A DNA stretch of 32,000 bases from contig JBGQBI010000001.1 in assembly GCA_041494705.1 (NCBI GenBank), positions 461,931 through 493,930 on the forward strand, read 5' to 3'. The position numbers were made by a program, and so were the translations under genes. Origin of the DNA: Candidatus Methanoperedens sp. (GTDB lineage: Archaea > Halobacteriota > Methanosarcinia > Methanosarcinales > Methanoperedenaceae). The notes below the pieces were generated by a model that did not search any database, was not told the origin of the DNA, and was given only the letters and a program-made list of their open reading frames with translations. Of this stretch, positions 3,001-15,602 are shown one piece after another (position 1 is the stretch's first letter; the number at the start of each line of letters is the position of its first letter).

Positions 3001-3097
3001 AATACAATAAAGCCGCAGCTATGCCTGATAAAACTACAAACACAAGTATTATGAGCCTGATATTAGAGAGGCCTGCCTTATCTCTTAAAACATCCAT
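1..3097 (-). CDS. Multiheme c-type cytochrome (partial; C-terminus runs off the left window edge), with an N-terminal membrane anchor and two PGF-pre-PGF-like domains
   Basis: Not in the supplied ORF track, apparently because it runs off the edge. My own reverse-strand translation starts at ATG 3097, with an in-frame TAG upstream at 3118-3116. It reads MDVLRDKAGLSNIRLIILVFVVLSGIAAALLYF (TM anchor). Two segments ending ...NSLSVFAIVAPS and ...GSLSPFAITG resemble archaeal pre-PGF domains. There are 14 CxxCH motifs, seen at nucleotide level; frame confirmed for 7 sites (the six listed here plus the CX11CH). Examples: CVKCH 1805-1819, CWACH 1652-1666, CENCH 959-973, CLDCH 401-415, CWACH 266-280, CIGCH 62-76. 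There is also one CX11CH at 743-784. All sites whose frame I checked share the frame of ATG 3097. Confidence 0.85.
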   Translation of the reverse strand, partial: MDVLRDKAGLSNIRLIILVFVVLSGIAAALLYFPPILTHTEAQKTSGEITFTDSAGNPLTGAISLSGDGVSSGPPKPDVNLISWHGIPGTIISYDDFATKGISINLRISGDSPKGRVVLENYGINQPGSVNVSAPGTPVKYVEVNSSGVSFSNADISIKYTDAEVSGLDVNNLTIYKYDGAMQVWNELPTKIDAVNNILGTTVNSLSVFAIVAPSPEWDINVIDTSGSLVNSTVEIFENNSLVKSYRKVNNSGLIGLAFPIITEPAVIFYSILDFFLPVASAAPDNPKTFKIDAIPTKNAALKLENASVHGKGKVILDDFGKKNPVPVPVPGKVVKFVEISAENISFSSAEVTIHYSKAELNNVNENTLVVYHWNVTQWEMLETIRDITNSTLSAGTGSLSPFAITGQESLVKKSGIVHLTGDISDCVKCHDVSNTTNNSIAKVDVSKMNSSSNATHQNLNHLANKTNLLSDPVNKACWACHTNGTEFNTTIIITGCVACHNATYNLTYTDADRINDLSARKIYNHIPYNYTIEVTAGLGYKITSDLNSSVDCAACHIKSMGGFNTSGFYISGGDAIDAIYSNISHYATNTSLIKNSTNCSLCHKSPANATEWYANLTRHPAKSQDCGNCHNKSTNANDTFHSQPWFYSYSIHGGIDVPSLTYDRGFDWEQDDFNESNSVPSDSEPCYACHGSANSGTIATNLQSVKLCENCHLPNTTSLFTGPNRTTFYSLRSDINDTLPYVYSHINYSNITGTNVSVPSQGGTATYSTTCYSYNAVTGEGTCHAAPYFNKSNFGGYYAQYNDASVPVGKYDPPHWTVPIDRMPNTTNCLFCHNQSIETIRNGWGNAMQVNASNMFGNRYAISNNSCYTCHTRNQSMPVDFHSNEVVLGGGPGCLDCHNNSNPQNFTGLHYIDGANFSISVHANINSNNASGYGINASCWACHNSSGYVVANNTHPDKRDTPYTCTDCHLANGSNAGAYNATIISNHYRNGTNIRALDNKTSDLASCIGCHENENISGMRIPNNDTDYGSY

Positions 3098-3261
3098 TTT
3101 TTTGACCCTGGTTTTCTACATTGTTTTCATTCCAATCCTATTTTCCTATCACCTTAATTGTTATTTATGCGCGTTCAAAATAAATAGGTTTACATGATTT
3201 TAATTGAATGAACATAATTATCAATCAGGAACCTGGCTTTTGGTTGTATTGAATGGCATTA

Positions 3262-4098
3262 TCATGACGTTAAATAATCCGTATGACGCCCGCTATATAC
3301 ATACCCGACACCGAATGCGGAAAATGCAAGTATGAAGATGCTGAAAATGATTAGCCATGCAATCCTTTTTCCGGTCCATCCCGCATTCATCCGCAGGTGC
3401 AGGCAAATCCCGTATGTGAACCATGAAATCAAAGACCATGTCTCGATGGGGTCCCAGCCCCAGTACCTCCCCCATGTCTGGTTTGCCCATATAGCGCCTG
3501 CTGCTATCATGATAGTAAGGGCGAAAAATCCCAATGCCACGAAACGATACATAAGATCGTCCATTGTTCGCAAGTCGGGCAGCCTGTCGTAAAATGAATC
3601 CTGGACTCCGGTATTTAAGTGCTTCTCTTTCAATATATAAAGAGCAGCAATGCCTGCCGCTACCATTACTGACCCGAAGCCAAGACTTGCAAAACCCACA
3701 TGGACTATCAGCCAGTAACTCTGGAGAGAAGCCGGTATCATCTGGATATCCCTCGAATAAGTCGAACCTATAGCCATCATCAAAAAGGATGCGGGCAGCA
3801 CTATAAATCCTGCAATCTTTATCTTTTCATATTTTTGCTGCGCGAGCAGGAATATAACTACGGAAAACCATGCATATTTTGATAAAACCTCGTACATACT
3901 GATGTAGGGACCGTGCCCTGTTTCTATCCACCGCAGGGCTATGGAAACGCTGTGGAACAACAAGCCGATTAGGGCGCTGCTGACTGCAAGATTTATTCTT
4001 TCTTCTTTCTTGAAAACAAGGCAGTATAAGTAAACAGCCGAACTGAGCGCATAAAGCATTGCAGCGGCCACGTACATAATCCATTCAGTCTGTCCCAT
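3262..4098 (-). CDS. ccsA: Cytochrome c biogenesis System II heme-handling protein CcsA/ResC
   Basis: 278-aa polytopic membrane protein carrying the Trp-rich WWD-type motif WGRYWGWDPIETWSLISW. It overlaps the stop of the upstream resB-like gene by 14 nt. An alternative start, MYVAAAM, lies at 4077. Confidence 0.9.
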   Translation of the reverse strand: MGQTEWIMYVAAAMLYALSSAVYLYCLVFKKEERINLAVSSALIGLLFHSVSIALRWIETGHGPYISMYEVLSKYAWFSVVIFLLAQQKYEKIKIAGFIVLPASFLMMAIGSTYSRDIQMIPASLQSYWLIVHVGFASLGFGSVMVAAGIAALYILKEKHLNTGVQDSFYDRLPDLRTMDDLMYRFVALGFFALTIMIAAGAIWANQTWGRYWGWDPIETWSLISWFTYGICLHLRMNAGWTGKRIAWLIIFSIFILAFSAFGVGYVYSGRHTDYLTS

Positions 4099-5485
4099 GT
4101 AACCTCTTAATCTTATCTACAATACCTGAATATTCTTCTTCATATAAAGACCTGAACTTATCCGCCCGCCCTCCTATATAAATTTCCACTGCACCGGACT
4201 TTTCATCCCTCTTAACCTCAACCCATACCCTTTTAGGGATTATAAAGAAAGATACCATCAGGCTGAGTATCATCAATCCGGCTCCCGCATACACAAGAGG
4301 CGTTCCGTCGTCCTTCACCACGTAGAAATTACTCCAGTATTTTATATCGTAAAAACCAAGATATTTATCAGATATTTTCACGGTCTCGTTGAGCCGCAAA
4401 GTCCCATCGTAAATCTGCTTTCCCCTGTCAAATACCCTCAAAAACATGATAGGTGTTTTTTCGGCTTCGGATTCCATGAGTTTTCCTGTCAAAGGCGCAG
4501 TCATGTAAACCATCAATCCCCCTTCAAGCCCCGTATTCCCCATTTCAAATGATGCGACATACCTCCCGCTGTTATCGAGGTCTGATGCGGTTATATACGA
4601 GCCGGAATATACCGTCCCGTCAGGATTTTTCAACAACAGCAGCGGCGCAAGACCATAGACGTTTCCAAGAAACGTGTATCCATTATAAGTCATCATGTGA
4701 TTTGAATATACGATATCAGTTTTCACTTTCTGACCATTCTCTATTATGGCAAGCTCACCTGCTGCTCCGCGAGGCGTATGTGTTTCATCCTTATAATCAG
4801 GGAAGAATCTCTCAAGAGATATACCGAATTTCCGATGTTGTTCATAAAAAAAAGGACCTTCATTGATAAACATATAGTTCCCGTGCTCTTCTTCCATGGT
4901 CTGTCCCTCTATTAATCGCATATCCCCTTCCATCCTGCCCGTACTGCCGTAAACCGCAGCTATTATGATGAAAAGTATGCTGATGTGAAATAGCGATGTG
5001 CCCATTATCCCTAGCCTGTTTTTTTCAGCAAGAATGCAATTCTCTTCCTGCCATACCTTATATCCTGCGGACTTAAGTAAAGAACCAGTTTCAGAAATAA
5101 CACTGTTGCTATCTTTTTTTGTTTTAATTACCGAGCTGTTCTCAAGTCCGGTAATGTATGCTTTTTTTTGGAATTGTGGAGCATTGAGCCTTCGAAAAGC
5201 GTTGTTCAACATCGTTCTTGTGCAAAAAAGAGTATTGATGACAAGGAGCGCCGCTATACTTAAAAATATAAATGATGAAAAAAGATGGGTAAAACCGATT
5301 TTCTCAAAGATATCAGCCTGCTCCGGATGGGCAGACTTCCATTTATCATATACATCAGGCTTGAGCTGCGATTGCTGGGGTACATGGGTCCCGATTATCG
5401 AAAATACGATAATAAGAGTAATAAGAACTATCGCAAGTTTTCTGGAGCTAAAAAAAGTAGCGATTTTGCCCATACTAAAATCCAT
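4085..5485 (-). CDS. ccsB: Cytochrome c biogenesis System II protein CcsB/ResB
   Basis: 466 aa. The N-terminus, FFSSRKLAIVLITLIIVFSIIGTHVPQQ...LFSSFIFLSIAALLVINTLFCT, matches the ResB-family N-terminal TM pair. A large soluble loop and a C-terminal TM (LVYAGAGLMILSLMVSFFIIP) follow. It lies directly upstream of, and overlaps, ccsA. Confidence 0.85.
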   Translation of the reverse strand: MDFSMGKIATFFSSRKLAIVLITLIIVFSIIGTHVPQQSQLKPDVYDKWKSAHPEQADIFEKIGFTHLFSSFIFLSIAALLVINTLFCTRTMLNNAFRRLNAPQFQKKAYITGLENSSVIKTKKDSNSVISETGSLLKSAGYKVWQEENCILAEKNRLGIMGTSLFHISILFIIIAAVYGSTGRMEGDMRLIEGQTMEEEHGNYMFINEGPFFYEQHRKFGISLERFFPDYKDETHTPRGAAGELAIIENGQKVKTDIVYSNHMMTYNGYTFLGNVYGLAPLLLLKNPDGTVYSGSYITASDLDNSGRYVASFEMGNTGLEGGLMVYMTAPLTGKLMESEAEKTPIMFLRVFDRGKQIYDGTLRLNETVKISDKYLGFYDIKYWSNFYVVKDDGTPLVYAGAGLMILSLMVSFFIIPKRVWVEVKRDEKSGAVEIYIGGRADKFRSLYEEEYSGIVDKIKRLHGTD

Positions 5486-5612
5486 TATTTTATCTTCCTG
5501 GCTTATTGTTTTTCTAATGTATTACGTTGTTCCATAGAATTGATGCGCATCTCACTATACCCTTGATAAGTAGATATAAATAACTTTGCAGATGATGTAA
5601 ACGTAAACTAAA

Positions 5613-6080
5613 ATGACGCCTCTAAATAAAATAATCGTCCTGATTGCCCTGGGTTCAGTTCTCGTTTTATCGGCTGCCTGGTGGGATTCGCAATCAGGAA
5701 ACAATTCAGCTTTTATCAAACTTGGCGGTGTTTCATTTCATACATCAATAGAACCGGGAATCACAGAGGCAAAGAACTTAAGCAAACCTGTTTTCCTGTA
5801 TTTCAGGTCAGAAACGTGTTACTGGTGCATAAGATTTGAAGATGAAGCCCTGTCTGATAAAAGGGTCATCGATAAACTCAATAAAAATTTTGTTCTTATA
5901 TCGATAGATACATTCAAACAAAAAAATGTTTCTCTCAATCTCAATGTACGAAATACCCCGTACATGATTTTCTTTACAAAAGACGGCGAAGAGATATCAA
6001 GAATCCCGGGCTACCTGCAAACTGACGATTTCCTGGTAAAATTAGATTCCGTATCTGAAAACCTCAACCGGAGCTCTTAG
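5613..6080 (+). CDS. Membrane-anchored thioredoxin-fold protein with a CxxC active site (candidate apocytochrome thiol reductase, ResA/CcsX analogue)
   Basis: 155 aa with an N-terminal signal/anchor (IIVLIALGSVLVLSAAWW). It has a thioredoxin-like core, PVFLYFRSETCYWCIRFEDEAL, with the CYWC motif. It is divergent from ccsB across a 127-bp AT-rich intergenic region that contains 'atataaata'. Confidence 0.65.
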   Translation: MTPLNKIIVLIALGSVLVLSAAWWDSQSGNNSAFIKLGGVSFHTSIEPGITEAKNLSKPVFLYFRSETCYWCIRFEDEALSDKRVIDKLNKNFVLISIDTFKQKNVSLNLNVRNTPYMIFFTKDGEEISRIPGYLQTDDFLVKLDSVSENLNRSS

Positions 6081-7524
6081 TTGCAGTTATATATGTTTCA
6101 ATAAACTTCTTAACCTGAGGTGGCATCTCCCCTTTCATCTGGTTTGAGAGGTAAGAATCGTTGATGAGCAGTCGCGTGACCTCTATCATGTAGTTTTTCT
6201 TAAAATCGCTCATCTCCTCAATCTTTTCAAGCTTTCCCATGTAAAAATCCCGGAACGCCTTTAAAAGATGTTTATTTAGCTCCTCCCGCGTCATGTTGAC
6301 GGGCCTGACTATCGGTTCGATAAGATTGTATTTTGAATAATCAAATTCCTCTATATACGGCGCAAGTTCAGGATAAATATCAGAATAAGGCCATGGGGCA
6401 ATTGCAAGGAAAAACGCAAGGTCAGGATTATAATACTGCGCCAGCTTACATGCCGCCTCTATGGATTCGGGCGTTTCTTCCGGCATCCCAAGGACAAAAG
6501 ATGTCTCCGAAATAATCCCGGTATTGTTTATCAGGTCAATCGCTTCCCTTGACTGCCCTATCCTGATATTTTTCTGATAGCGGTCAAGTGTATCCTGGCT
6601 TGCGGATTCCGCTCCCACGTAGATATGAAGGATTCCCGCCTTTTTGTATTTATCAATTATATCCTTATCACGCAGGATGTCGTCCACCCTTGTTTCCATC
6701 AGGAGTTCAAGGTCAAGTTCTTTCTCGATGAGCAGATCAAGGATTTTCTCCCACCGTTTGCGGTCATACGTGGGGGTTTCATCAGCTATCATGGCAACAT
6801 CCACGCCATATGTGCTGTTTAAGTATTCAAGCTCGGATACGAAGTTTTCAGGGCTTCTCCCTCTCCATTTCTCCCTCCAGAAAAGACGCTGCGAACAGAA
6901 GGTGCATTTCTGGGTGCAGCCCCTTGAAGAACTCACGACTGCAAGTGTGGAATTTTTCTTTGTCTTGAATGTATAATCCTTCCACTCTATAAGGTTCCAT
7001 GCCGCAGGCATTGTGTCCAGATTTGAGATGAGAGGCCGTTCTTTCGTGCAGATGATTTTCCCATCCCGCGCATAAGCAATTCCCGGGGTATCCGGGTTTT
7101 TTTCTGCAAAAACCTGGCTTAAAAGTTCTGATGTAGTGATTTCACCTTCGCCGCGTATGATATAATCTACTATGCTCCTCTCTTTTTGCAGGATTTCCTC
7201 CCAGCAGAAAGTGGGATGGATGCCGCCAAGGAGCGTAATTATCCCCGGATTTACCTCTTTAGCTACCTTGAGAACCGCAATAGCATCGTAAAGGCTTGAT
7301 GTATATGCCGCCGTGCCCACAACATCGGGAGTGATTTCTTTTATGCGCCTTTTGATGTCATCAAAAGTATGGTATTTTGACATCGCATCGTATATGCTGA
7401 CTTCATACCCGGATTTTTGCAGGCTTCCGGCAACATAGACCATGCCAAGTGGCATCCATGTGCCTGCGGATTCGAGTACGCCGCAGTGGTAAGGCGGTGT
7501 TATTAACAGGACTTTTTTAGACAT
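6064..7524 (-). CDS. B12-binding-domain radical SAM protein (class B rSAM)
   Basis: The N-terminal MSKKVLLITPPYHCGV...PLGMVYVAGSLQKSGYEVSIYDA is typical of a cobalamin-binding domain. The radical SAM cluster motif is SSSRGCTQKCTFCSQ (CxxxCxxC). I prefer the ATG at 7524 (MSKKVLL) over the track start at 7587, which would overlap the upstream gene. The 3' end converges with and overlaps the thioredoxin-like gene by 17 nt. Confidence 0.85.
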   Translation of the reverse strand: MSKKVLLITPPYHCGVLESAGTWMPLGMVYVAGSLQKSGYEVSIYDAMSKYHTFDDIKRRIKEITPDVVGTAAYTSSLYDAIAVLKVAKEVNPGIITLLGGIHPTFCWEEILQKERSIVDYIIRGEGEITTSELLSQVFAEKNPDTPGIAYARDGKIICTKERPLISNLDTMPAAWNLIEWKDYTFKTKKNSTLAVVSSSRGCTQKCTFCSQRLFWREKWRGRSPENFVSELEYLNSTYGVDVAMIADETPTYDRKRWEKILDLLIEKELDLELLMETRVDDILRDKDIIDKYKKAGILHIYVGAESASQDTLDRYQKNIRIGQSREAIDLINNTGIISETSFVLGMPEETPESIEAACKLAQYYNPDLAFFLAIAPWPYSDIYPELAPYIEEFDYSKYNLIEPIVRPVNMTREELNKHLLKAFRDFYMGKLEKIEEMSDFKKNYMIEVTRLLINDSYLSNQMKGEMPPQVKKFIETYITATKSSG

Positions 7525-7552
7525 TTGGTTTCTTTGAATACCGGTATGATAA

Positions 7553-10507
7553 TTATATTTTGTGTTTCTTCCAGAACCATAGTGCAACTATTCCTATTAC
7601 CAACGAAAATGCAGCTATGTAGGTTAAATATGGTTTTGTTACTATTTTAACAATCTCTTTGCCATGAAAACTTTTTAATTCTCCTTCAACATGGCATCCC
7701 CAGCAATCCTTATTTCCAATATTACTATGTTGCGAATCCGAAGGCAGGGCTCTGGGATTCCCCCATGCTTTTCTTATAGTTTCATTTTCCTGGATATGGC
7801 AGAAAACGCAATTTTTTGAATCCGGCATGTAATCAACAGGAGAATTCCAGTGGTAAGGGTCGCCCTTGTTAAATAATGTGCCTGTATAATTTGTATTGAA
7901 GGAAAAATAACCGCCTGCTTTTGCTTTATTCCCGAACGTCACGCCATGGCACGAACCCTGGCCGGTTGCTGCATCAAATCCGAAGCAGGAAGACCTTGTA
8001 TTACCTAAAGAAGACTGGTCTGTCACATTGATGGGAGAATTATTGTAATGGGAATATACCACCGGGATATATTTTGTAATATCGGGCCGCACGTTAGCAA
8101 GGGGACTTAGCTCCGGGTTTACTTTTACATGGCAGTCTTCACATACATTCAATTTCGGCGATACATGCTCCGTCATTTTTACGTGGCACACCGGGCAGCT
8201 TTCATTCAGCCTGTCAGCTCCTTTTTCATTGGCATTATCCCCTTCCCAGTCAAAACTATCATGCATGAATCCGGGTGAAAATGGCTTTTCCGGATGTTTA
8301 CCGTTTGAAAAAGTAGTATTGTAATGACAGTTTTCACAATTGTTGCCAGTCGTTCCATGCCTTATTTTATGGCATGAGGTACAATCTTCGGCCGCTGAAT
8401 AAGAAGTAGAATTCACACCTGGCAATTTGTCTGCGGCTGATAGTTTCGGGGTTGTATCGCTATTATTATATTTGCCGCCGGAATTATCCATTGTTGTCGG
8501 GAGAGACATGGTTATCCTGACCACAGCGGTTTTCATTGTTTCTGCGTTACCCGCATTATCCAAACTGAAATATTTAATGGTATGTCCGCCTTCTTCATTA
8601 AAAGTAAGCTGTATATATGGTAAATAAGATACCTGCCCGACTCCATCCACTATGTAGTTTATTGCTTCAACACCTGAGATATTATCAGAAGCTGTAATAT
8701 TGAGAGTTACATTTGCAGTGTGCCACGTACTGTCTGAGTTATCGACCGTCTGTGGAGGGATATTATCAATCCTGATAGTGGCAGTATGAGGTTGTTCAGC
8801 GTTCCCTGCATTATCCACACTATAATACCTGATAGTATGATTGCCTTCCCCGCTTATGGAAACGGTTGTGCCTTTCAGAGAGTATGATGTAGGAATTGGG
8901 CCATCAACGGTGTAATAAGTTTCCATTATACCTGAGCCTGCATCGCTGGCAGTAAGCATGACCGCAACGCTGCTATTATACCATTGACCATCAGCATTGT
9001 CTGACGTAAGAGGTGGGGTTTTGTCGATTTTCACCTGGCTCGGTGCTGTCTTTATCCCTTCGACATTGCCTGCTTTATCCACGCTGAAATATTTGATAGT
9101 ATAAATCCCTTCATTTGAAATACTAAATGTTGTTCCTTCTGTGGAGTTTACTGTTGGTTCTGTTCCATCAATAGTATAGTACGTGGCTGCCACCCCGCTT
9201 TCATTATCTTTCGCTGTCAATGTAACTGTAACGCTGCTATTATGCCATTGCCCGTCCACATCATCCGTGGTTGCGGGAGGTATGGTGTCCGCTGGTTTGT
9301 TATAGTAAGTATAGGCATAGATGTTCCCATTGGAATTCCCCAATATAATCTCCTTGTTGCCGTCCCCTTCCAGGTCCGCTATAGTCGCCGATGTAAACAT
9401 ATCATTAGCGACCCTTGTATTTTCAAGGACATTTCCCTGGTTATCCCATATATACAGGTTCCCGTATGCGTCGCCGGCTGCAATTTCCATCTTCCCGTCG
9501 CCGTTTATGTCTCCAAGCGCGAGATTACTGTCAACCCTTCCGATAGAAGAAAATTCTTTCAGGATGCCATTCCTTATCAGATATATTTTTTTCTCATCAT
9601 TTGAGGCGATTGCCGCACTAATCACGCCTGTGCCGTCTATATCGCCCGTGCCAGGAGATGCTAGGTTACTTTTTATGTTAAATTTATAAAGCTGATTACC
9701 GCTATTATCGAAAATAGATACTCCCGATGACGAAGTCACAATAATTTCATTCCTACCGCTCCCCTCAAAGTCACCGAACCTTGCGCTTCTCGCATCCCCT
9801 CCGAGATCCCTGCTCCAGAGAATTGTTCCCATAATACTATTTACTTTTATTACCCAGATTTTCCCATCTATTGGATTTGCAGAATTGATATCCTGGGTTA
9901 AAATAACAGCCTCATCGATTCCATCCCCGTCGATATCGCCAACCGGGATTGGCGCCCTGTAATTCACAGCCTTTCCAAGCTCAAGATACCAGAGTTTATT
10001 TCCAGAGCTGTCGAATGCATACACACCTGTAGCCTGGGTTATTGATCCCAAAGACGACCCCGGAGCCGCCCCGGTAAGAATTATTCCTTCTTTTGTAATT
10101 GACGGGGAGGAAATAAGCAGATATTTTCCCGGCGTTATATTCGCAATATTATTACCCGCAGTATCCCAGATATAAAAAGTGGCATCCGAGTAACCGGGAT
10201 TACCATAAGAAATTATTTCAAGCCTGCCGCTGATATTGGCTACCAGAGGAGTTCTTGCTTCATCTGCCAGATTTATTCCGCCGGTATTCTCCCAGTCAAG
10301 GACGCCCATATAATTGAACACTTTAATCATCCTGTTATCGGGCGCCGCTATTATCTCAGGTTTCCCGTCTCCGTCTATATCCTGTACAACTAAAAGGGAT
10401 TTAATTGGGCTACCAGTATTGACAGGGAAACCTGCGTGTTGTTCTATCTTGGCAGATACTGTTGTTATCATTAGAAACACTGTTAAAAATAAAACTAGTT
10501 TATTCAT
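7553..10507 (-). CDS. Chimeric surface protein: signal peptide, FG-GAP/VCBS beta-propeller repeats, three Ig-like repeats, a heptaheme c-type cytochrome domain and a C-terminal TM anchor
   Basis: The signal peptide is MNKLVLFLTVFLMITTVSA. Ca-binding-like FG-GAP motifs recur: DIDGDGKPEI, GDIDGDGIDE, GDFEGSGRNE, GDIDGTGV, GDINGDGKMEI, ADLEGDGNKEI. Three ~85-aa repeats have the form DGQWHNSSVTVTLTAKDNESGV..YYTIDG...YFSVDKAGNVE. The heme motifs are CTSCH, CENCH, CPVCH, CEDCH, CX11CH (7946-7987), CVFCH and CWGCH. The C-terminal anchor is IAAFSLVIGIVALWFWKKHKI. I chose the start at 10507: it has a GGAGGGAGGAG SD-like run 11 nt upstream and lies 1 nt after the TAA of the upstream cytochrome gene. 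Confidence 0.85.
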   Translation of the reverse strand: MNKLVLFLTVFLMITTVSAKIEQHAGFPVNTGSPIKSLLVVQDIDGDGKPEIIAAPDNRMIKVFNYMGVLDWENTGGINLADEARTPLVANISGRLEIISYGNPGYSDATFYIWDTAGNNIANITPGKYLLISSPSITKEGIILTGAAPGSSLGSITQATGVYAFDSSGNKLWYLELGKAVNYRAPIPVGDIDGDGIDEAVILTQDINSANPIDGKIWVIKVNSIMGTILWSRDLGGDARSARFGDFEGSGRNEIIVTSSSGVSIFDNSGNQLYKFNIKSNLASPGTGDIDGTGVISAAIASNDEKKIYLIRNGILKEFSSIGRVDSNLALGDINGDGKMEIAAGDAYGNLYIWDNQGNVLENTRVANDMFTSATIADLEGDGNKEIILGNSNGNIYAYTYYNKPADTIPPATTDDVDGQWHNSSVTVTLTAKDNESGVAATYYTIDGTEPTVNSTEGTTFSISNEGIYTIKYFSVDKAGNVEGIKTAPSQVKIDKTPPLTSDNADGQWYNSSVAVMLTASDAGSGIMETYYTVDGPIPTSYSLKGTTVSISGEGNHTIRYYSVDNAGNAEQPHTATIRIDNIPPQTVDNSDSTWHTANVTLNITASDNISGVEAINYIVDGVGQVSYLPYIQLTFNEEGGHTIKYFSLDNAGNAETMKTAVVRITMSLPTTMDNSGGKYNNSDTTPKLSAADKLPGVNSTSYSAAEDCTSCHKIRHGTTGNNCENCHYNTTFSNGKHPEKPFSPGFMHDSFDWEGDNANEKGADRLNESCPVCHVKMTEHVSPKLNVCEDCHVKVNPELSPLANVRPDITKYIPVVYSHYNNSPINVTDQSSLGNTRSSCFGFDAATGQGSCHGVTFGNKAKAGGYFSFNTNYTGTLFNKGDPYHWNSPVDYMPDSKNCVFCHIQENETIRKAWGNPRALPSDSQHSNIGNKDCWGCHVEGELKSFHGKEIVKIVTKPYLTYIAAFSLVIGIVALWFWKKHKI
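8505..9280 (-). repeat. Three tandem ~85-aa Ig-like (bacterial-Ig / OmpL47-like 'AGN-E' type) coding repeats inside the chimeric cytochrome
   Basis: The protein repeats are DGQWHNSSVTVTLTAKDNESGVAATYYTIDG..IYTIKYFSVDKAGNVE, then DGQWYNSSVAVMLTASDAGSGIMETYYTVDG..HTIRYYSVDNAGNAE, then DSTWHTANVTLNITASDNISGVEAINYIVDG..HTIKYFSLDNAGNAE. Boundaries are approximate. Confidence 0.75.
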
Positions 10508-10508
10508 T

Positions 10509-13500
10509 TTACCTGTTTCTCCTCCCTCCAGTGCTTGGTTGAACATGGCAGCCCGTTGAGAAGCATCCGCTACTGCCTACATACATGCCTATATTTTTAT
10601 CATGAAGTGTCATATTAACCTGCGGATTGGAATTATGGCATGAAGACTGGCAGGAAATCCCTGTGCTGCCCATTATATTATGACTAGATGGTAAGATTCT
10701 GGCATTTCCATAATCCTTCCCCACTGCACCTGCGTTATGGCATTTATTGCATCCAAAATTTGTTCCCGTTGTGGCTCTCGTATCGGGCAGTATGCCTGTT
10801 ACTGCTGATGGCATACTTTCACCGAGTGTCCTGCTAACCACGTAATGCGATACCGAGGCGTTCTTTAATTTTTCCGCGGCATAGCCGCCATAATTAATGT
10901 TCTGGTTTGCTACTAAACTATTATTATGACATGAAACGCACGTCCTGTTAGAGTCCACGTTATCGTAAACCACCGTGCCTGAAAATACCGAACCCGGATA
11001 ATGCCGGTACACTAAAGTGGCATTGAAATTATTATTGACATGACAATACTCGCATGGTTTTGGATACTGATAATTAACCGGATGCTTTTCCGGCTGGGTG
11101 CCATTGCCATGACATGCCCAGCAGGCTTTGTTTATCGGGTCCAATACTGAGGTGTTGGTTGCATTACTGTTAAGATTCGCATGCACGCCAAGCTTCATCG
11201 CACTAAAGTTTATCTTCCTGTCGTCCGGCGCCCCGTTTCCTGATACATCGTGACATGAAACACAATCAGGTCCGCTCGCGCTGGGTTTAAGATTGTGGCT
11301 AAAGTCAAGCGAAGTGGCGCCTGTTTTGAGCGCGCTGCCGTGGCAATTTTTACATTTAATATCATCATATCCCGAGGAAAGCGCACCTGAATGGTTGTAG
11401 AAAGCTGTGCCATCCCTGGAAGTAAGCGGGACAAGTCCGCCCATGTTTAACACTTCAGGAGGCACCGGATTGAGAAGGTTCCCCGAGTAATTGGGCGCAT
11501 TCTTGTAATGGCAGTTGGCACACCAGTAACTTCCGTTTAAGCTCTGGTTGTTTGTATTGTTCCCCATGATCTTTGTGATATTGCCCAGAGCTGATGCATT
11601 ATGGAGGGTAATACCATGGCAGTAAACACATGCGCTCTGCGTGTCGCTGTTTGTCCAGTAACCCTGCTGCGTGCCATTCCACAGTGAACCGTTATAAGGA
11701 TCGGCGCTGTGATTCATGGGCGCGGGGATTTTCGGGGCAGTGCTGAAGTTGCCAGGACCGCTCTGGTGGCATGTGGTACAGTTTACTGCATTTGTCCTTG
11801 ATGTGCTGAAGTTGGAGCCGTCCTGCTGGAGGTACCGCACCGGATGGATGCTCCTGCTATCGTTGAGATGGCAGTCTGTACAATTTACGGCATTATTGTG
11901 TGGTTGTTTAAAACCAGTTACTGCTCCTGTATAATTTGTGCCGCCGGTGCCGTTGTTGCCGTGACAGCTCAAGCATAAACGGTTATTATTCACGGGCGAC
12001 GCCGGCTTGTAAAGTGTACTGTTGTGAATTCTGCCAGCCTGGGTTGCATGGCAGTCCGTACAACCCGGATTGGAGGAGGGATAGCCGGATGAGTGGTTTG
12101 CTATCGTCTTGTTTGCATTATCGATGAACGGAAATACTGTTGTCTGGTTGTTGTGGCATTTATTACAGTAATCGTTTGTTCCCTGTGCAGGGTAATCAGT
12201 GCGTTTCTTGCCATAATGACTTGTGCTATTGCTTCCGCCGTTTTCACCGCCGTAAACGCCTGCTGCGCCGTCAGGGTCAGGGTTTGTGCCCAGCATCATC
12301 TCAGTCCTATTATGGCAATCATAGCACGTGGTCACCGCCTCCGTTCTTATACTGGTGCCGTTCCAGTAGTGCTGGGTTACGTATGGTATTATTGCAATAA
12401 GATCTCCATACATATTATGGCATACTGCACAGCTTATACCTATGTGCCTCGTAACATGGCAATCCACACATCTGTAGGGTGTCTTGTAATTGGATGGATG
12501 ACTACTTCCCGGTTCGTTGCCGTTGCCGTGGCATGCCCAGCATTTCTTGTTCTCTGCGGGCAGGGTTGTTGTGGTTCTGCTGTTCAGGTCACTGTGGATG
12601 GCGTTTACATCGTTCATCGCACTGATATTTACAAGTTTTCCTGCACCGGCTGAGCCTCCGATGTTGTGGCAGCCTGTACAGTTGGCTCCTCCTGCCTGTC
12701 CTATACCCACATTATGGCTAAAGTTGAGAGACGTTGCCCCTGCATTGAGGTTATTATCATGGCAGTTCTTGCACGTAGCATCATCATAGCTTGTTGAGAT
12801 TGCACTTGAATGGTTGTAGAATGAAGTTCCATCTTTGGAAATTACAGGGACAAGCCCGCTCTGGTTTAACACCTCAGGCGGCTGCTGAGTTAACAGGTTT
12901 CCTCCATAATCGGGTGCAGTCTTATAATGGCAGTTTGCACACCATCTACTTGTGGTAAGGTCCTGATTTAAACTATTCGTCCCTTTGACGTTGCTTACGC
13001 TACCCAGTGCTGAGATGCTGTGAAGAGTCGATAGACCGTGGCAGTAATAACATGCGCTCTTCTGGCTTGTATTATCCCAGTAAGCGGATTGCAAGCCATT
13101 CCAGAGGACGCCTGCATATGGGTCTGTGCTGTGGTTCAAAGGTACTGGAATCTGTGGCGGGTTCCTGCCTGTGTAGTTGCCTGCCTTGGGCTGCGCTTTC
13201 AGAGCAGCGAAGAACGAAGCGTTCTGGTGGCAATTGGTGCAGTTGCCTCTTGCTGGATTTGGATTATTATGATTCAAATCTACATACGTGGCGTTCTGTG
13301 CAAACACCTGTATGTCATGCACATCGTCGCTGTGGCATAGTGTGCAGTTCACGCCGCCCGATGTGGTGTTGCTTGAGTTGTGCTCGGTATTGCTTGTGTG
13401 GCAGGTTTTACATTGAGAATCTTCTGTATTACTATTCCTTATAAATCTCTGGGTTTCATCAGGTTTAGTGATATTATGCATCGGACCGTGGCAGATGATG

Positions 13501-15602
13501 CAGGGGACTGTTGAGTTGGGTGTATGGAAGGTTCCATTAAAGTCAGTGCCATTGTTTTCAGAATATTCGCTATGTGCAATTGCTTTATTGGAATTATTAA
13601 GAGTGGATTTGCCTGAGATATCCGACCTGTTTGCAGGAGTGTGGCAGACTGTTGTATTGAAACATGAACCTATGACAGCATTTGTACTATGGACTGAACT
13701 GGCTTGATGGCAGTTTGGGTCACTGCAAGTGAGATTTCTGTGAACATCTTTGGTATTAATCCCATGGTTTGCACCACCGGAAGTAAGGGCACCTGGATTG
13801 CCATCAAATGATTGGTGACAGTTTGTACAGTTCAGAGTTGCACTTGTGTGTGTACCAGTTTGAGATATTGTCTCCCTTCCGCCCATATAAGGCGAATTTT
13901 TGGCCATCGTCCCGGCAGGATTCGAACCTGTATGGCCACTGTTACATCCTGACATCCCGCATCCCCACCAGTTGTAGATAAAGCTTGTATTATCGTTAAG
14001 ATTGCCGTTCGACGCTTTGACCGTCCAGTTCCCATAATAGTTCCTTGCATCCATGTCAAAGCTGAAGTTGGCAAGACCATATGCATTGGTTGTAGCATTT
14101 ATTCTTGCCGGAGTATATTCTGTCCCGTTGGGCATGTATAAATTGAATGTTATGACCCTTCCGCTCAAAGGTGAACCTTTATCATCTATGAAAAAGGCTG
14201 TTGCATTGATATTGGTATTTATACCCGTCCAGGAATTAGCGGTGTGAGTTGTTGTCGGTTTAAAAAATCCTGTACCATTTGAACTGGCCGTTGTCCAATC
14301 GTCCAGTATCACATAGCGGTTGGTGGCAACCAGTATTTTCCCCCCAGCCGAAGGCGGCGTGGGCGTAAGCAAGATATTAACATTGCTCATCGCAGCGCCG
14401 CTTACTGTTCCTGTGGTTGAGTTGTCGTTATAACCCGGCTTACTGGCTGTTATGATATAAGTGCCGTTGCCTACCGTAAAATTGTAGTAGCCCGTGCCGT
14501 CCGTACTGGTGGAAAGGCTCGTGTTCGTTGTAACTGCGGCGCCCGTTATCGCCTGTCCGTTTGAGGCATTGGTAACGTAGCCTGATAATTGATAAGTCGG
14601 CACAGGTGTTAGCGAGATGTTTGCAGTGGTATTATGAGCGCCGTTAATTGCTACGTTAATCGAATTTACACCATAACCTGTGAGGCTTGCATTAATAACA
14701 TATGTCCCATTGGATAAGCCCGTGAAATTATAGAAGCCGGTAGCATTTGTTGTCGTGGTCAGGCTTGTGTTTGTCTGAACTGTGGCACCGCTTAGAGGAA
14801 GACCGCTGGATTTGTTGGTAACATAGCCTGAAATATTGTAGAGTGTGGTATCGTTTATAGTGATATTCGATATATAATTATTGAAATACAAACTCACTGT
14901 CCCGGCAGTACCCGTAGTCGTGTTTATTTGAACCATCAGCCTGTGCCCTTTCGGAACAATATATGTAGTATAATTGATTCGAGAGCTGTAGTTTCCCTGG
15001 GTGGTTGCGGTTGGAGTTAGATTTACCTTGTTGCCAATACGGGTTTTTGCGCCGTTTGCAGGATCATATTCGAATAGTGATACGTTTAGCCGGTTATTTG
15101 TAGTACTCGTAGCCTTCCAGCTTATATTAAAAGTGGTATTTCCAGTGATTAAGGTATCATTGGTATAATTAAAAGGGAGATAAAACCTGAAAAGCTCGTA
15201 TTCGGTAGTGGTGGAAGTGGTAGTAAAACTTATATTTGCTACTGTGCCCATGGTTCCGTTTTTCAATAAATTCTTGTAAGGTCTTTGTGCCAGCGGGACT
15301 ATAGTGTTTGTTGCGGAATAATTTGTCATTCCATCCGCCCCCACTGACACATTGCCTGCGGTGTTGTTGTTTTCCAGATAATAAATTTTCACATCCGCCG
15401 CTGCCGGCTGAACCATAGCAAACATAACGCCGGTTATAACTAGAACCAGAATCACAGCTAGTCTTGCCCGTTTTATCCGCTTTTTACAGAAACCTGCATT
15501 CATTTTAGAAGCCATACCACCATTTTCAATAGCAACTGCTATGCCATCAATTCGTTTTCTATTCTGAAGCATCATGAATTGATGTCCTATCCAATTCATC
15601 AA
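10509..15602 (-). CDS. Giant secreted multiheme c-type cytochrome (about 1660-1697 aa; 26 CxxCH plus 4 non-standard CXnCH motifs)
   Basis: A signal-like segment, RARLAVILVLVITGVMFAMVQPAAA, suggests the true start is an internal Met (for example MNAGF at 15503). The N-terminal third is beta-rich and sequon-rich, with two carboxypeptidase-regulatory-like repeats. My manual count of the track translation gives 26 canonical CxxCH motifs. Non-standard motifs are CSDPNCH, CFNTTVCH, CQSSCH and CFSTGCH. There is no C-terminal anchor; the protein ends GCHVQPSTGGRRNR. Confidence 0.9.
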   Translation of the reverse strand: MMNWIGHQFMMLQNRKRIDGIAVAIENGGMASKMNAGFCKKRIKRARLAVILVLVITGVMFAMVQPAAADVKIYYLENNNTAGNVSVGADGMTNYSATNTIVPLAQRPYKNLLKNGTMGTVANISFTTTSTTTEYELFRFYLPFNYTNDTLITGNTTFNISWKATSTTNNRLNVSLFEYDPANGAKTRIGNKVNLTPTATTQGNYSSRINYTTYIVPKGHRLMVQINTTTGTAGTVSLYFNNYISNITINDTTLYNISGYVTNKSSGLPLSGATVQTNTSLTTTTNATGFYNFTGLSNGTYVINASLTGYGVNSINVAINGAHNTTANISLTPVPTYQLSGYVTNASNGQAITGAAVTTNTSLSTSTDGTGYYNFTVGNGTYIITASKPGYNDNSTTGTVSGAAMSNVNILLTPTPPSAGGKILVATNRYVILDDWTTASSNGTGFFKPTTTHTANSWTGINTNINATAFFIDDKGSPLSGRVITFNLYMPNGTEYTPARINATTNAYGLANFSFDMDARNYYGNWTVKASNGNLNDNTSFIYNWWGCGMSGCNSGHTGSNPAGTMAKNSPYMGGRETISQTGTHTSATLNCTNCHQSFDGNPGALTSGGANHGINTKDVHRNLTCSDPNCHQASSVHSTNAVIGSCFNTTVCHTPANRSDISGKSTLNNSNKAIAHSEYSENNGTDFNGTFHTPNSTVPCIICHGPMHNITKPDETQRFIRNSNTEDSQCKTCHTSNTEHNSSNTTSGGVNCTLCHSDDVHDIQVFAQNATYVDLNHNNPNPARGNCTNCHQNASFFAALKAQPKAGNYTGRNPPQIPVPLNHSTDPYAGVLWNGLQSAYWDNTSQKSACYYCHGLSTLHSISALGSVSNVKGTNSLNQDLTTSRWCANCHYKTAPDYGGNLLTQQPPEVLNQSGLVPVISKDGTSFYNHSSAISTSYDDATCKNCHDNNLNAGATSLNFSHNVGIGQAGGANCTGCHNIGGSAGAGKLVNISAMNDVNAIHSDLNSRTTTTLPAENKKCWACHGNGNEPGSSHPSNYKTPYRCVDCHVTRHIGISCAVCHNMYGDLIAIIPYVTQHYWNGTSIRTEAVTTCYDCHNRTEMMLGTNPDPDGAAGVYGGENGGSNSTSHYGKKRTDYPAQGTNDYCNKCHNNQTTVFPFIDNANKTIANHSSGYPSSNPGCTDCHATQAGRIHNSTLYKPASPVNNNRLCLSCHGNNGTGGTNYTGAVTGFKQPHNNAVNCTDCHLNDSRSIHPVRYLQQDGSNFSTSRTNAVNCTTCHQSGPGNFSTAPKIPAPMNHSADPYNGSLWNGTQQGYWTNSDTQSACVYCHGITLHNASALGNITKIMGNNTNNQSLNGSYWCANCHYKNAPNYSGNLLNPVPPEVLNMGGLVPLTSRDGTAFYNHSGALSSGYDDIKCKNCHGSALKTGATSLDFSHNLKPSASGPDCVSCHDVSGNGAPDDRKINFSAMKLGVHANLNSNATNTSVLDPINKACWACHGNGTQPEKHPVNYQYPKPCEYCHVNNNFNATLVYRHYPGSVFSGTVVYDNVDSNRTCVSCHNNSLVANQNINYGGYAAEKLKNASVSHYVVSRTLGESMPSAVTGILPDTRATTGTNFGCNKCHNAGAVGKDYGNARILPSSHNIMGSTGISCQSSCHNSNPQVNMTLHDKNIGMYVGSSGCFSTGCHVQPSTGGRRNR
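11040..11720 (-). repeat. Copy 2 of an internally duplicated ~230-aa six-heme module of the giant cytochrome
   Basis: NHSADPYNGSLWNG..CVYCH..YWCANCHYKNAPNYSGNLLNPVPPEVLN..CKNCH..CVSCH..CWACHGNG..CEYCHV aligns collinearly with copy 1. Boundaries are approximate. Confidence 0.8.
12450..13145 (-). repeat. Copy 1 of an internally duplicated ~230-aa six-heme module of the giant cytochrome
   Basis: NHSTDPYAGVLWNG..CYYCH..RWCANCHYKTAPDYGGNLLTQQPPEVLN..CKNCH..CTGCH..CWACHGNG..CVDCHV. The order and spacing of the six CxxCH motifs match copy 2. Confidence 0.8.
14355..14848 (-). repeat. Two tandem carboxypeptidase-regulatory-like (CarboxypepD_reg/PEGA-like) beta-sandwich coding repeats
   Basis: The first repeat is ISGYVTNKSSGLPLSGATVQTNTSLTTTTNATGFYNFTGLSNGTYVINASLTGYGVNSINV...SLTPVP. 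The second is LSGYVTNASNGQAITGAAVTTNTSLSTSTDGTGYYNFTVGNGTYIITASKPGYNDNS...LLTPTP. Confidence 0.75.

What the first reader, a model, noticed from the sequence alone, without database searches (positions are those of the whole stretch)
7553..10507. Unusual fusion: integrin-like FG-GAP beta-propeller, Ig repeats and a heptaheme domain on one C-terminally anchored protein
Seen directly: six DxDGDG-type FG-GAP/VCBS motifs, enough for a roughly 7-bladed propeller, are followed by three Ig-like repeats. Then come six CxxCH plus one CX11CH and a single C-terminal TM helix with a KKHKI tail. Established knowledge: FG-GAP propellers are ligand or adhesion modules, and MHC domains carry electrons. Inference: the membrane-proximal hemes could hand electrons to partners. 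The distal propeller could dock a mineral surface, a partner cell, the S-layer or the 1697-aa cytochrome encoded immediately upstream. I am not aware of a characterised protein with this architecture.
Basis: partly seen in the sequence, partly recalled or inferred. Interest (0 to 1): 0.7.

Follow-up and report, generated by a model that had tools for sequence, protein, structure and literature searches.

The report
Propeller–cytochrome gene fusion in Methanoperedens
In one lineage of the methane-oxidising archaeon Methanoperedens, a deletion has welded two neighbouring genes (a calcium-loop propeller protein that always follows giant cytochrome genes, and a membrane-anchored seven-heme cytochrome) into one protein, which suggests that these parts of the cell's external electron wiring work together physically.

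Summary
Window 7553..10507 (-) encodes a 984-aa protein with these parts:
- a signal peptide;
- an FG-GAP propeller with six Ca-loop motifs (the model shows 8 blades, not 7);
- three OmpL47-type Ig-like repeats and a 35-aa stump of a fourth;
- six CxxCH plus one CX11CH;
- a C-terminal TM helix with a KKHKI tail.

The organism is Ca. Methanoperedens. The gene is an in-frame deletion fusion of two adjacent genes. In related genomes the order is giant multiheme cytochrome (MHC), separate propeller/Ig protein, separate ~305-aa heptaheme with its own signal peptide, BchE-like B12 radical SAM, thioredoxin, ResB, CcsA. Every comparison breaks at window position 8399.

The fusion is not an artefact. 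The exact product is on 6 contigs, one over 1 Mb. Two alleles diverged by 9-15% share the junction. dN/dS is about 0.24 across all modules.

The propeller/Ig gene directly followed a giant MHC gene in all 11 contexts examined. My reading (inferred) is that the membrane-anchored heptaheme is an electron relay and the propeller/Ig arm holds the giant secreted cytochrome. The fusion makes a non-covalent link covalent.

It is a new variant of a known kind: ANME MHCs fused to non-heme domains. No publication describing it was found.

The parts
10442..10507 (-). Start codon and N-terminal signal peptide (aa 1-22, MNKLVLFLTVFLMITTVSAKIE). One nucleotide separates this ATG from the stop codon of the upstream giant MHC gene (TAA-A-ATG).
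   Evidence: Hydropathy. The N-termini of homologues align from residue 1. Spacer sequence.
9293..10441 (-). FG-GAP/VCBS-type beta-propeller (aa 23-405). Six blades carry Ca-loop motifs and two are degenerate. The model shows 8 blades.
   Evidence: Pfam FG-GAP_3, FG-GAP and Beta-prop_CGLA. AlphaFold pLDDT above 90. Foldseek best match to 8-bladed propellers. Blade lay-out.
8504..9292 (-). Linker (aa 406-409) and three OmpL47-type / CHB_HEX_C_1 Ig-like beta-sandwich repeats (aa 410-668), forming a stalk.
   Evidence: NCBIfam NF047446, 173 bits in 3 stretches. Pfam. Repeat alignment. Model.
8399..8503 (-). Stump of a fourth Ig-like repeat (aa 669-703), ending at the fusion junction ...STSY|SAAEDC. 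Position 8399 is the breakpoint.
   Evidence: Repeat alignment. DNA alignments to L005, L006, L007 and L001 all break at 8399.
7643..8398 (-). Heptaheme cytochrome c domain (aa 704-955) with 6 CxxCH and a conserved CX11CH. It is homologous to a stand-alone ~305-aa Methanoperedens cytochrome, starting after that protein's signal peptide.
7553..7642 (-). Juxtamembrane segment, C-terminal TM helix (about aa 958-980), basic cytoplasmic tail KKHKI and stop codon.
   Evidence: Hydropathy. This is the only confident part of the heme-domain model (helix, pLDDT 84-90). Conserved in all stand-alone homologues.
10509..15602 (-). Upstream giant multiheme cytochrome (up to 1697 aa): 26 CxxCH plus 4 CX3-5CH, 93 N-glycosylation sequons, a signal peptide and no C-terminal TM. 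It is the likely partner of the propeller/Ig arm.
   Evidence: Gene pair found in all 11 contexts examined.
6064..7524 (-). BchE-like B12-binding radical SAM protein (486 aa from the conserved start). It always lies directly downstream of the heptaheme gene.
   Evidence: Pfam. NCBIfam TIGR02026, 401 bits, below the cut-off of 481. Synteny.
5613..6080 (+). Thioredoxin-like protein (a ResA/CcsX-type candidate), on the opposite strand.
   Evidence: Pfam Thioredoxin_2. Conserved position.
4085..5485 (-). ResB (CcsB-type), a System II cytochrome c biogenesis protein.
   Evidence: Pfam ResB, E 3.7e-55.
3262..4098 (-). CcsA/ResC-type System II heme lyase subunit.
   Evidence: Pfam Cytochrom_C_asm. 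NCBIfam TIGR03144, 200.6 bits, above the cut-off of 187.6.
1..3115 (-). N-terminal 1038 aa of a further giant multiheme cytochrome that runs off the start of the window.
   Evidence: Orthologous MHC downstream of CcsA in L001, L005, L006 and L007.

Best explanation
What it is (shown). This is a genuine, selected in-frame deletion fusion in one Ca. Methanoperedens lineage. The ancestral locus read: giant secreted MHC, propeller/Ig 'partner' protein, ~305-aa C-terminally anchored heptaheme cytochrome, BchE-like radical SAM, thioredoxin, ResB, CcsA, another giant MHC. A deletion of about 1.1 kb removed four things: the distal Ig repeats, the 'type A' C-terminal domain of the partner protein, the spacer, and the signal peptide of the heptaheme. 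The cut partner protein was joined six residues before the first heme motif.

How it most likely works (inferred). After Sec export the protein sits in the cytoplasmic membrane by its C-terminal helix. The seven conserved hemes, probably bis-His, lie next to the membrane and act as an electron relay. The three Ig-like domains form a stalk. The distal Ca-loop propeller holds the giant, unanchored, heavily glycosylatable MHC encoded one nucleotide upstream. In unfused relatives the same three proteins would assemble non-covalently, perhaps through the lost type A domain. The fusion hard-wires the tether. In this reading it is a 'Rosetta stone' for a chain from membrane cytochrome to adaptor to giant extracellular cytochrome, used for extracellular electron transfer.
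For: Single breakpoint:
- Propeller/Ig homologues align to aa 1-703 only. Heptaheme homologues align from their residue ~26, just after the signal peptide, to aa 704.
- DNA alignments to four unfused loci all break at window position 8399.

Unfused synteny: seen in L005, L006, L007 and L024.

Reality of the fusion:
- The identical 997-aa product is on 6 contigs, one over 1 Mb, and in two separate sequencing runs.
- Alleles L004 (91% aa identity) and L013 (88-94%) keep the same junction.
- dN/dS is 0.21 (propeller), 0.28 (Ig) and 0.21 (heme) at dS 0.18.

Electron-relay role:
- All heme-motif residues, 8 further His and the TM helix with its basic tail are conserved across the 25 homologues.
- A System II maturation set lies adjacent.

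Partner role of the propeller:
- Its gene followed a giant MHC gene in all 11 contexts examined, with a spacer of 0-40 nt or an overlap.
- Those MHCs share a C-terminal module and have no TM anchor.
- Type A partners sit directly upstream of the heptaheme in 4 of 5 contexts.
Against: - No direct evidence of binding between the propeller and the giant MHC. Gene adjacency may reflect co-export, folding or glycan handling instead.
- The propeller sits at the end of three Ig domains, roughly 10 nm if extended (my estimate), so it is a tether rather than an electron-transfer interface.
- The heme domain could not be modelled (pLDDT 38.7). It has no relative of known structure. The heme order and the exit site are therefore unknown.
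- Some genomes keep the heptaheme cluster with no adjacent propeller gene (L001/L010, L014, L015). The coupling is therefore not obligatory.
- The two halves have different nearest relatives: the heme half is 96% identical to unfused L007, the propeller half only 71%. This points to recombination and complicates a simple single-origin story.
Confidence: 0.6

Rival explanations
1. Surface adhesin or lectin. The propeller/Ig arm binds something other than the giant MHC, such as S-layer glycans, exopolymer, mineral surfaces or partner cells. The heptaheme is simply presented at, or anchored near, that contact.
For: FG-GAP/VCBS propellers and OmpL47 or chitobiase-C-type Ig domains are typical of adhesins and carbohydrate-binding proteins (family names). 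Structural neighbours include integrin alpha headpieces and an archaeal S-layer YVTN+PKD protein, 1l0q. Some family members end in dockerin modules.
Against: This does not explain why the gene followed a giant MHC gene in all 11 contexts examined, with tight spacing. The hemes lie next to the membrane, far from the distal propeller, so the protein could not itself wire a distant surface.
Confidence: 0.2
2. Tolerated accident. The deletion merely swapped the heptaheme's signal peptide for a long secreted N-terminal extension. Both halves keep their separate jobs, and the covalent link has no functional meaning.
For: The heptaheme works as a stand-alone protein in most genomes. The fusion is confined to one sublineage, with 3 alleles known. 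The junction lies inside a broken Ig repeat that probably acts only as a linker.
Against: All modules stay under purifying selection after a divergence of dS 0.18. The fusion deleted the partner protein's own C-terminal domain, so the partner now depends on the heptaheme for its anchorage.
Confidence: 0.14
3. Propeller enzyme wired by hemes. The propeller would be a catalytic or cofactor-binding domain, as in cytochrome cd1 nitrite reductase, quinohemoprotein alcohol dehydrogenases or hydrazine synthase alpha. The heptaheme would carry electrons to or from it.
For: Eight-bladed propellers joined to c-type heme domains are an established enzyme design (my own knowledge). Structural hits include the PQQ-like 8-bladed YxaL. 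Some family members have weak PQQ_2 hits (PF13360).
Against: The window protein has no Pfam hit to PQQ or cytochrome d1 families at E<=0.01. The conserved residues are Ca-loop and structural Gly, Asp and Pro. Three Ig domains separate the propeller from the hemes. In most genomes the propeller protein has no hemes at all.
Confidence: 0.04
4. Artefact or dying gene: a chimeric assembly, or a pseudogene-like remnant.
For: The junction lies within a repeat region (Ig repeats), where short-read assemblies can collapse.
Against: The identical product is on 6 contigs, including ones over 0.2 Mb and over 1 Mb, and in two independent runs. Two diverged alleles from other assemblies share the junction. 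The frame is intact and dN/dS is 0.24. The deleted segment includes the unique spacer and the signal peptide, not just repeat units.
Confidence: 0.02

Closest known systems
ANME large multiheme cytochromes MHC-B and MHC-C (Chadwick et al. 2022, PMC9012536)
   Same: These are archaeal methanotroph c-type cytochromes that carry a heme-free N-terminal domain (peptidase M6-like, or pectin-lyase fold proposed to recognise a partner surface). MHC-A and MHC-B also have a C-terminal TM helix. MHC-B has a dedicated maturation gene (CcmF2) next door.
   Different: This protein has only 7 hemes, against 20-80. No S-layer domain was found. The non-heme part is an FG-GAP propeller plus OmpL47 Ig repeats. 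The adjacent maturation genes are System II (ResB/CcsA), not CcmF. It arose by a recent fusion of two genes that are separate in most relatives.
Stand-alone ~305-aa Methanoperedens heptaheme cytochrome (unnamed; P0121-P0145)
   Same: Identity is 52-85% over aa 704-984. The six CxxCH, the CX11CH loop (CFG[FY][DN]xx[ST]GEG[ST]CH), the TM helix and the basic tail are the same. The downstream radical SAM, thioredoxin, ResB and CcsA genes are the same.
   Different: The stand-alone proteins have their own signal peptide and no propeller/Ig extension.
Methanoperedens giant-MHC-associated propeller/Ig proteins (unnamed; P0002-P0049, annotated 'FG-GAP-like repeat-containing' or 'chitobiase/beta-hexosaminidase C-terminal domain-containing')
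   Same: Identity is 40-81% over aa 1-703. The position directly after a giant MHC gene is the same.
   Different: They have more Ig repeats and end in a type A, FIMAH-like, CarboxypepD_reg or dockerin module. They have no hemes and no TM anchor.
Integrin alpha / bacterial FG-GAP (VCBS superfamily) propellers
   Same: They share the FG-GAP blade signature with DxDxDG Ca loops, and they are extracellular binding modules (PMC8023676 listed).
   Different: Integrin alpha is 7-bladed with thigh and calf domains and a beta subunit. The model here has 8 blades followed by OmpL47-type repeats.
MccA/SirA-type cytochromes with CX15CH and a dedicated heme lyase (own knowledge; CX11CH and CX15CH are listed as rare heme motifs in PMC11492766)
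   Same: There is one long-spacer heme-binding motif among normal CxxCH motifs, and a lyase gene set is encoded alongside.
   Different: There is no sequence relationship. Here the system is archaeal, has 7 hemes and includes a BchE-like radical SAM. Lyase specificity is untested.
Propeller-plus-heme-c enzymes (cytochrome cd1 NirS, quinohemoprotein ADH, hydrazine synthase alpha)
   Same: A beta-propeller and c-type heme lie on one polypeptide.
   Different: In those enzymes the propeller holds a catalytic cofactor and packs against the heme domain. Here there is no cofactor-family signature, and three Ig domains separate the two parts.

Membership tests
FG-GAP / VCBS beta-propeller superfamily | Repeated blades matching the FG-GAP profiles above the curated threshold | tested here: met
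   PF13517 scores 60.4 bits (cut-off 26.9). PF01839 scores 38.2 bits (cut-off 22.1).
FG-GAP / VCBS beta-propeller superfamily | DxDxDG-type Ca-binding loops in the blades, and a closed propeller fold | tested here: met
   Six loops. The AlphaFold model has pLDDT 90.3 and all top Foldseek hits are propellers. Calcium binding itself was not tested.
Integrin alpha-type propeller | Seven blades, followed by thigh and calf domains | tested here: not met
   Eight blade units and about 32 strands. The best TM score (0.84) is to 8-bladed 6tjg. OmpL47-type repeats follow the propeller.
Multiheme cytochrome c | Several CxxCH motifs in an exported protein, with distal ligands available | tested here: met
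   Six CxxCH and one CX11CH. All 14 Cys lie in motifs. Eight extra conserved His. Signal peptide present.
Multiheme cytochrome c | Covalent heme actually attached | not testable with these tools
   Needs heme staining or mass spectrometry. A System II maturation set is adjacent.
Methanoperedens ~305-aa anchored heptaheme family | Six CxxCH, the CFGxxxxxGEGxCH loop, a C-terminal TM helix and a basic tail, upstream of radical SAM, thioredoxin, ResB and CcsA | tested here: met
   The family's own signal peptide is replaced by the propeller/Ig module.
MtrC/MtrF domain II/IV (PF22113) and cytochrome c7 (PF14522) | Score above Pfam's gathering threshold | tested here: not met
   PF14522 scores 21.3 bits (cut-off 24.8) in the window protein. 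PF22113 scores 26 bits (cut-off 30) in P0121. No PDB relative by sequence or profile.
OmpL47-type beta-barrel (Ig-like) repeat | Match to NF047446 above the cut-off | tested here: met
   173.2 bits (cut-off 40) in 3 stretches.
ANME MHC-A/B/C (Chadwick 2022) | 20-80 hemes, with an S-layer domain (A, B), a peptidase M6-like N-terminus (B) or a pectin-lyase N-terminus (C) | tested here: not met
   Seven hemes. None of these domains appears in the Pfam or NCBIfam scans.
PGF-CTERM / archaeosortase-processed surface protein | PGF motif before the C-terminal helix | tested here: not met
   The C-terminus is KPYLTYIAAFSLVIGIVALWFWKKHKI, with no PGF motif. No NCBIfam PGF-CTERM hit.
Propeller-heme enzymes (cd1 NirS, PQQ quinohemoproteins) | Propeller matching the cytochrome d1 or PQQ families | tested here: not met
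   No such family at E<=0.01 in the window protein.

The most novel reading that the evidence does not exclude
Methanoperedens would have an undescribed three-tier electron-export module.
- Tier 1: a membrane-anchored CX11CH heptaheme, matured by a private System II lyase and a BchE-like radical SAM. The radical SAM may modify the heme.
- Tier 2: an 8-bladed Ca-propeller/Ig 'holder' protein.
- Tier 3: a cognate giant secreted MHC, with one holder per giant cytochrome.

The fused gene in this window would be the natural Rosetta stone showing that tiers 1 and 2 are in physical contact. That would give the first concrete model of how unanchored giant archaeal cytochromes are retained and fed with electrons.
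Probability: 0.3. Interest if true: 0.75.

Novelty: new variant of a known kind. Interest (0 to 1): 0.55.

Why it matters
How anaerobic methanotrophic archaea move electrons from the membrane to giant extracellular cytochromes is unresolved. So is how those cytochromes stay attached to a cell that has no outer membrane.

This locus adds three testable pieces:
- A propeller/Ig gene directly followed a giant MHC gene in all 11 contexts examined, and I found no description of this pairing.
- A conserved membrane-anchored heptaheme carries a rare CX11CH motif and has its own System II and BchE-like maturation genes.
- A natural fusion joins the first two.

Gene fusions of neighbours are classic predictors of physical interaction. 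The fusion therefore nominates specific partners for pull-downs, cross-linking and structure prediction in Methanoperedens enrichments.

Tried and rejected
- AlphaFold on the heme domain with 26 sequences failed (pLDDT 38.7). No fold search was run on that model.
- Sequence and profile searches of the PDB found nothing meaningful for the whole protein. The best hits were weak propeller matches at E about 0.07. They found nothing at all for the heme domain.
- A first combined alignment (A1) forced the non-homologous C-termini of unfused partners onto the heme domain. I discarded it and used per-domain alignments.
- The whole-library phmmer search was swamped by giant Ig-repeat proteins. Its top 150 held no other protein combining FG-GAP with hemes. 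Three giants (P0195, P0198, P0216) combine Ig repeats with 13-21 CxxCH. This is not an exhaustive architecture search.
- A search with a query spanning the junction returned only stand-alone heptahemes, with at most 42% coverage. It also missed the known fused P0001, so it says nothing about how common the fusion is. The heme-domain search missed P0001 as well.
- The exact-sequence look-up of the 984-aa form found nothing, because gene callers used the ATG at 10546. The 997-aa form was found.
- Literature searches for FG-GAP, propeller or VCBS with Methanoperedens, for ResB or CcsA with Methanoperedens, and for CX11CH found no description of this protein or cluster.
- PGF-CTERM, S-layer, PQQ and cytochrome d1 assignments were considered and rejected for lack of hits.


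Full report
**The observation**

Window 7553..10507 on the minus strand is an intact ORF of 984 aa. A longer reading from the ATG at 10546 gives 997 aa.

A motif and hydropathy script found the following:
- a hydrophobic N-terminus (aa 1-22);
- four strict D-x-[DN]-G-[DT]-G loops (aa 43, 191, 289, 333); two relaxed loops, at about aa 245 and 378, were read from the translation and the blade lay-out;
- six CxxCH (aa 709, 724, 771, 789, 900, 935) and one CX11CH (aa 841-854), which together use all 14 cysteines of the protein;
- a C-terminal hydrophobic helix (about aa 958-980) followed by KKHKI.

Pfam places FG-GAP_3 and FG-GAP above their curated thresholds. NCBIfam identifies the three Ig-like repeats as OmpL47-type beta-barrel domains (173 bits against a cut-off of 40).

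First, the N-terminal model (AlphaFold, 43-sequence alignment, mean pLDDT 90.3) has about 32 strands between residues 21 and 401. The sequence lays out as eight blade units, two of them with degenerate loops. The best structural superposition is on an 8-bladed designed propeller (6tjg, TM 0.84, rmsd 3.8 Å). The 9- and 10-bladed designs from the same series match less well, at TM 0.68. Eight blades are therefore more likely than seven.

Second, residues 669-703 are the first 35 residues of a fourth Ig-like repeat that stops abruptly.

**What it is**

Homology searches place the locus in Candidatus Methanoperedens. About 35 Methanoperedens proteins match the query, but only over its first ~70%. 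They have no CxxCH motif and have other C-termini. Only P0001 (91% identity, 983 aa) covers the full length and carries the hemes.

The C-terminal 280 residues match a family of stand-alone ~305-aa proteins (52-85% identity). The 25 members aligned all keep the six CxxCH, the loop CFG[FY][DN]xx[ST]GEG[ST]CH, the C-terminal TM helix and the basic tail.

Pairwise alignments show a single seam. Propeller/Ig homologues stop at query residue 703. Heptaheme homologues start at residue 704, from their own residue ~26, which is just after their signal-peptide cleavage site (...SAA|EDC).

In four related assemblies the two genes are separate and adjacent. The order is giant MHC, propeller/Ig protein (856-1103 aa), heptaheme (303-306 aa), B12 radical SAM, thioredoxin (opposite strand), ResB, CcsA, and then another giant MHC where the contig continues (L005, L006, L007, L024).

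At the DNA level, the window aligns to each unfused locus in two blocks that both end at window position 8399. Relative to L005, 1097 nt are missing. The missing stretch holds the last ~319 codons of the partner gene, the 63-nt spacer and the 25 signal-peptide codons. The junction reads ...TCT ACT TCT TAT | TCA GCG GCC GAA GAT TGT (STSY|SAAEDC).

**Is the fusion real?**

Three lines of evidence say it is:
- The exact 997-aa product is recorded on six contigs. Two are 0.2-1 Mb, one is over 1 Mb, and Logan assemblies of two different runs are among them.
- Two further alleles come from other assemblies: L004 (GCA_041643025.1) and L013 (isolate OBJ1_062018_110_35). They differ from the window by 9-15% at the nucleotide level and have the same junction and an open frame.
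- Between the window and L004, dS is 0.18. dN/dS is 0.21 for the propeller, 0.28 for the Ig region and 0.21 for the heme domain.

An assembly chimera or a decaying gene is therefore very unlikely. Among the loci recovered from species-representative genomes, one (L013) is fused, eight have a separate heptaheme gene, and two are uninformative. The fusion is thus a minority, lineage-restricted state.

**Context that bears on function**

I examined 11 gene contexts for the propeller/Ig family: the window, L004, L013, both pairs in L005, L006, L018, L019, L020, L024 and L025. In every one, the gene lies directly downstream of a giant multiheme cytochrome gene. The two genes overlap or are separated by up to 40 nt; in the window the spacing is TAA-A-ATG.

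Those cytochromes carry 21 to 58 or more CxxCH in the visible part and 55-160 N-glycosylation sequons. They have no C-terminal TM helix. They share a C-terminal module ending ...GC[FY]SxGCHxQPSTG followed by a basic tail. The window's upstream cytochrome (up to 1697 aa) has 26 CxxCH plus four CX3-5CH.

The partner proteins fall into C-terminal types. Type A comprises P0002-5, P0012 and P0016. In 4 of 5 known contexts it sits directly upstream of the heptaheme gene. The window's N-terminal half is closest to this type. Type B is FIMAH-like and was never next to the heptaheme in the contexts I saw. Some other members end in dockerin. The fusion deleted exactly the type A domain.

The heptaheme gene is followed by a BchE-like B12 radical SAM gene in every locus whose contig extends that far. 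The thioredoxin, ResB and CcsA genes follow it in most of these loci.

**Most likely mechanism**

Shown: the protein has an export signal, a conserved heme-binding domain next to a C-terminal anchor whose basic tail would stay cytoplasmic, and a long heme-free extracellular arm.

Inferred: the heptaheme is a membrane-proximal electron relay. The eight extra conserved histidines fit seven bis-His hemes and leave no obvious open catalytic site. The arm is an adaptor that holds the giant secreted cytochrome encoded upstream. In most relatives the adaptor and the relay are separate proteins that presumably associate, perhaps through the type A domain. In this lineage the contact has been made covalent.

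Caveats:
- No binding has been demonstrated.
- The propeller is separated from the hemes by three Ig domains and a broken-repeat linker, so it tethers rather than forming the electron-transfer interface.
- The heme-domain structure could not be predicted.
- Some genomes keep the heptaheme cluster with no adjacent partner gene.

Rivals, in order of credibility:
- an adhesin or lectin arm that binds the S-layer, glycans, minerals or partner cells;
- a tolerated accident with no functional coupling;
- a cofactor-bearing propeller enzyme wired by hemes, for which no cofactor-family signature was found;
- an artefact, which is largely refuted.

**Comparison with what is known**

Chadwick et al. 2022 describe ANME MHC types A, B and C. 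These carry S-layer, peptidase M6-like or pectin-lyase domains. Types A and B also have C-terminal TM helices, and MHC-B has a dedicated CcmF2 gene next to it. The present protein follows the same design principle but fails every defining feature of those classes: it has 7 hemes, different domains, and System II rather than Ccm neighbours.

It belongs to the FG-GAP/VCBS propeller superfamily, to the OmpL47-repeat family and to the unnamed Methanoperedens heptaheme family. It is not an integrin-type 7-bladed propeller, and it does not reach the Pfam thresholds for the MtrC/MtrF or c7 families.

CX11CH is a recognised rare heme-binding motif. From my own knowledge, related long-spacer motifs in MccA/SirA need dedicated lyases. 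That makes the adjacent ResB/CcsA set a candidate private lyase.

Full-text searches found no paper connecting Methanoperedens with FG-GAP, VCBS or propeller proteins, or with ResB or CcsA.

**Unexplained**

The two halves have discordant nearest relatives. The heme half and the downstream genes are 94-96% identical to unfused L007, whose partner protein is only 71% identical. The propeller half is closest to the fused alleles (88-91%) and to unfused P0002 (81%). Recombination among Methanoperedens populations is the simplest reading, but I did not test it.

The MAG that holds L013 also has a second contig (L012). It starts inside a heptaheme gene and is 94% identical over the 934-nt overlap. 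This could be a second strain or a second copy.

**Verdict**

- Novelty: a new variant of a known kind.
- Interest is moderate to high for researchers in extracellular electron transfer. The value lies less in the odd architecture itself than in the interaction it predicts and the conserved, undescribed gene module it exposes.

Noticed in passing
window 3262..7524 (both strands); also L001, L005-L012, L023, L024: A conserved set of genes lies directly downstream of the CX11CH heptaheme gene: a BchE-like B12 radical SAM (TIGR02026, 401 bits, below the cut-off of 481), a thioredoxin-like protein, ResB and CcsA (System II). It is a candidate private maturation pathway, either a dedicated lyase or a tetrapyrrole modification. 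ANME archaea are described as using the Ccm system (Chadwick et al. 2022), and I found no paper linking Methanoperedens with ResB or CcsA.
   Followed up: partly
window 10509..15602 with 7553..10507; L005, L006, L018, L019, L020, L024, L025: In all 11 contexts examined, a giant multiheme cytochrome gene is directly followed by a propeller/OmpL47-Ig partner gene, with a short spacer (at most 40 nt) or an overlap. L005 has two such pairs in tandem. The giant cytochromes share a C-terminal module ending ...GCFSxGCHxQPSTG plus a basic tail, and they have no TM anchor.
   Followed up: partly
P0002-P0049 (homologues of window aa 1-703): The partner family has interchangeable C-terminal modules. Type A (about 120 aa, ending ...E[IL]LT[ND]R[GD]GLK) lies mostly next to the heptaheme gene. 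Type B is FIMAH-like. Others end in CarboxypepD_reg or in dockerin (P0027, P0033, P0034). This looks like a docking code.
   Followed up: partly
window 1..3115 (-): The first 1038 aa of a third large multiheme cytochrome (14 CxxCH so far, MtrC/MtrF-like domains) run off the start of the window. Its orthologues follow CcsA in L001, L005, L006 and L007.
   Followed up: partly
window 3001..11716 compared with L007, L004 and L013: Mosaic relatedness. Downstream of position 8399 the window is closest to the unfused locus L007 (heme domain 96% aa identity). Upstream of it the window is closest to the fused alleles (88-91%) and only 71% identical to L007. This suggests recombination at or near the junction.
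   Followed up: no
L012 and L013 (same MAG, isolate OBJ1_062018_110_35): Two contigs of one MAG overlap over 934 nt of the heptaheme and radical SAM genes at only 94.4% identity. One carries the fused gene. The other starts inside the heme domain. This could be a strain mixture or two paralogous loci.
   Followed up: no
P0195, P0198, P0216: These are very large proteins (3266-4199 aa) from the whole-library search. They combine OmpL47/Big_13-type Ig repeats with 13-21 CxxCH motifs. So Ig-repeat-plus-multiheme giants exist outside this family.
   Followed up: no
window 16024..18595 (-): Upstream of the cytochrome cluster lie a CofH/MqnC-like radical SAM gene and a gene encoding pterin-binding, CdhD-like, DUF4346 and DUF6513 domains. 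Their relation to the cluster is unknown.
   Followed up: no
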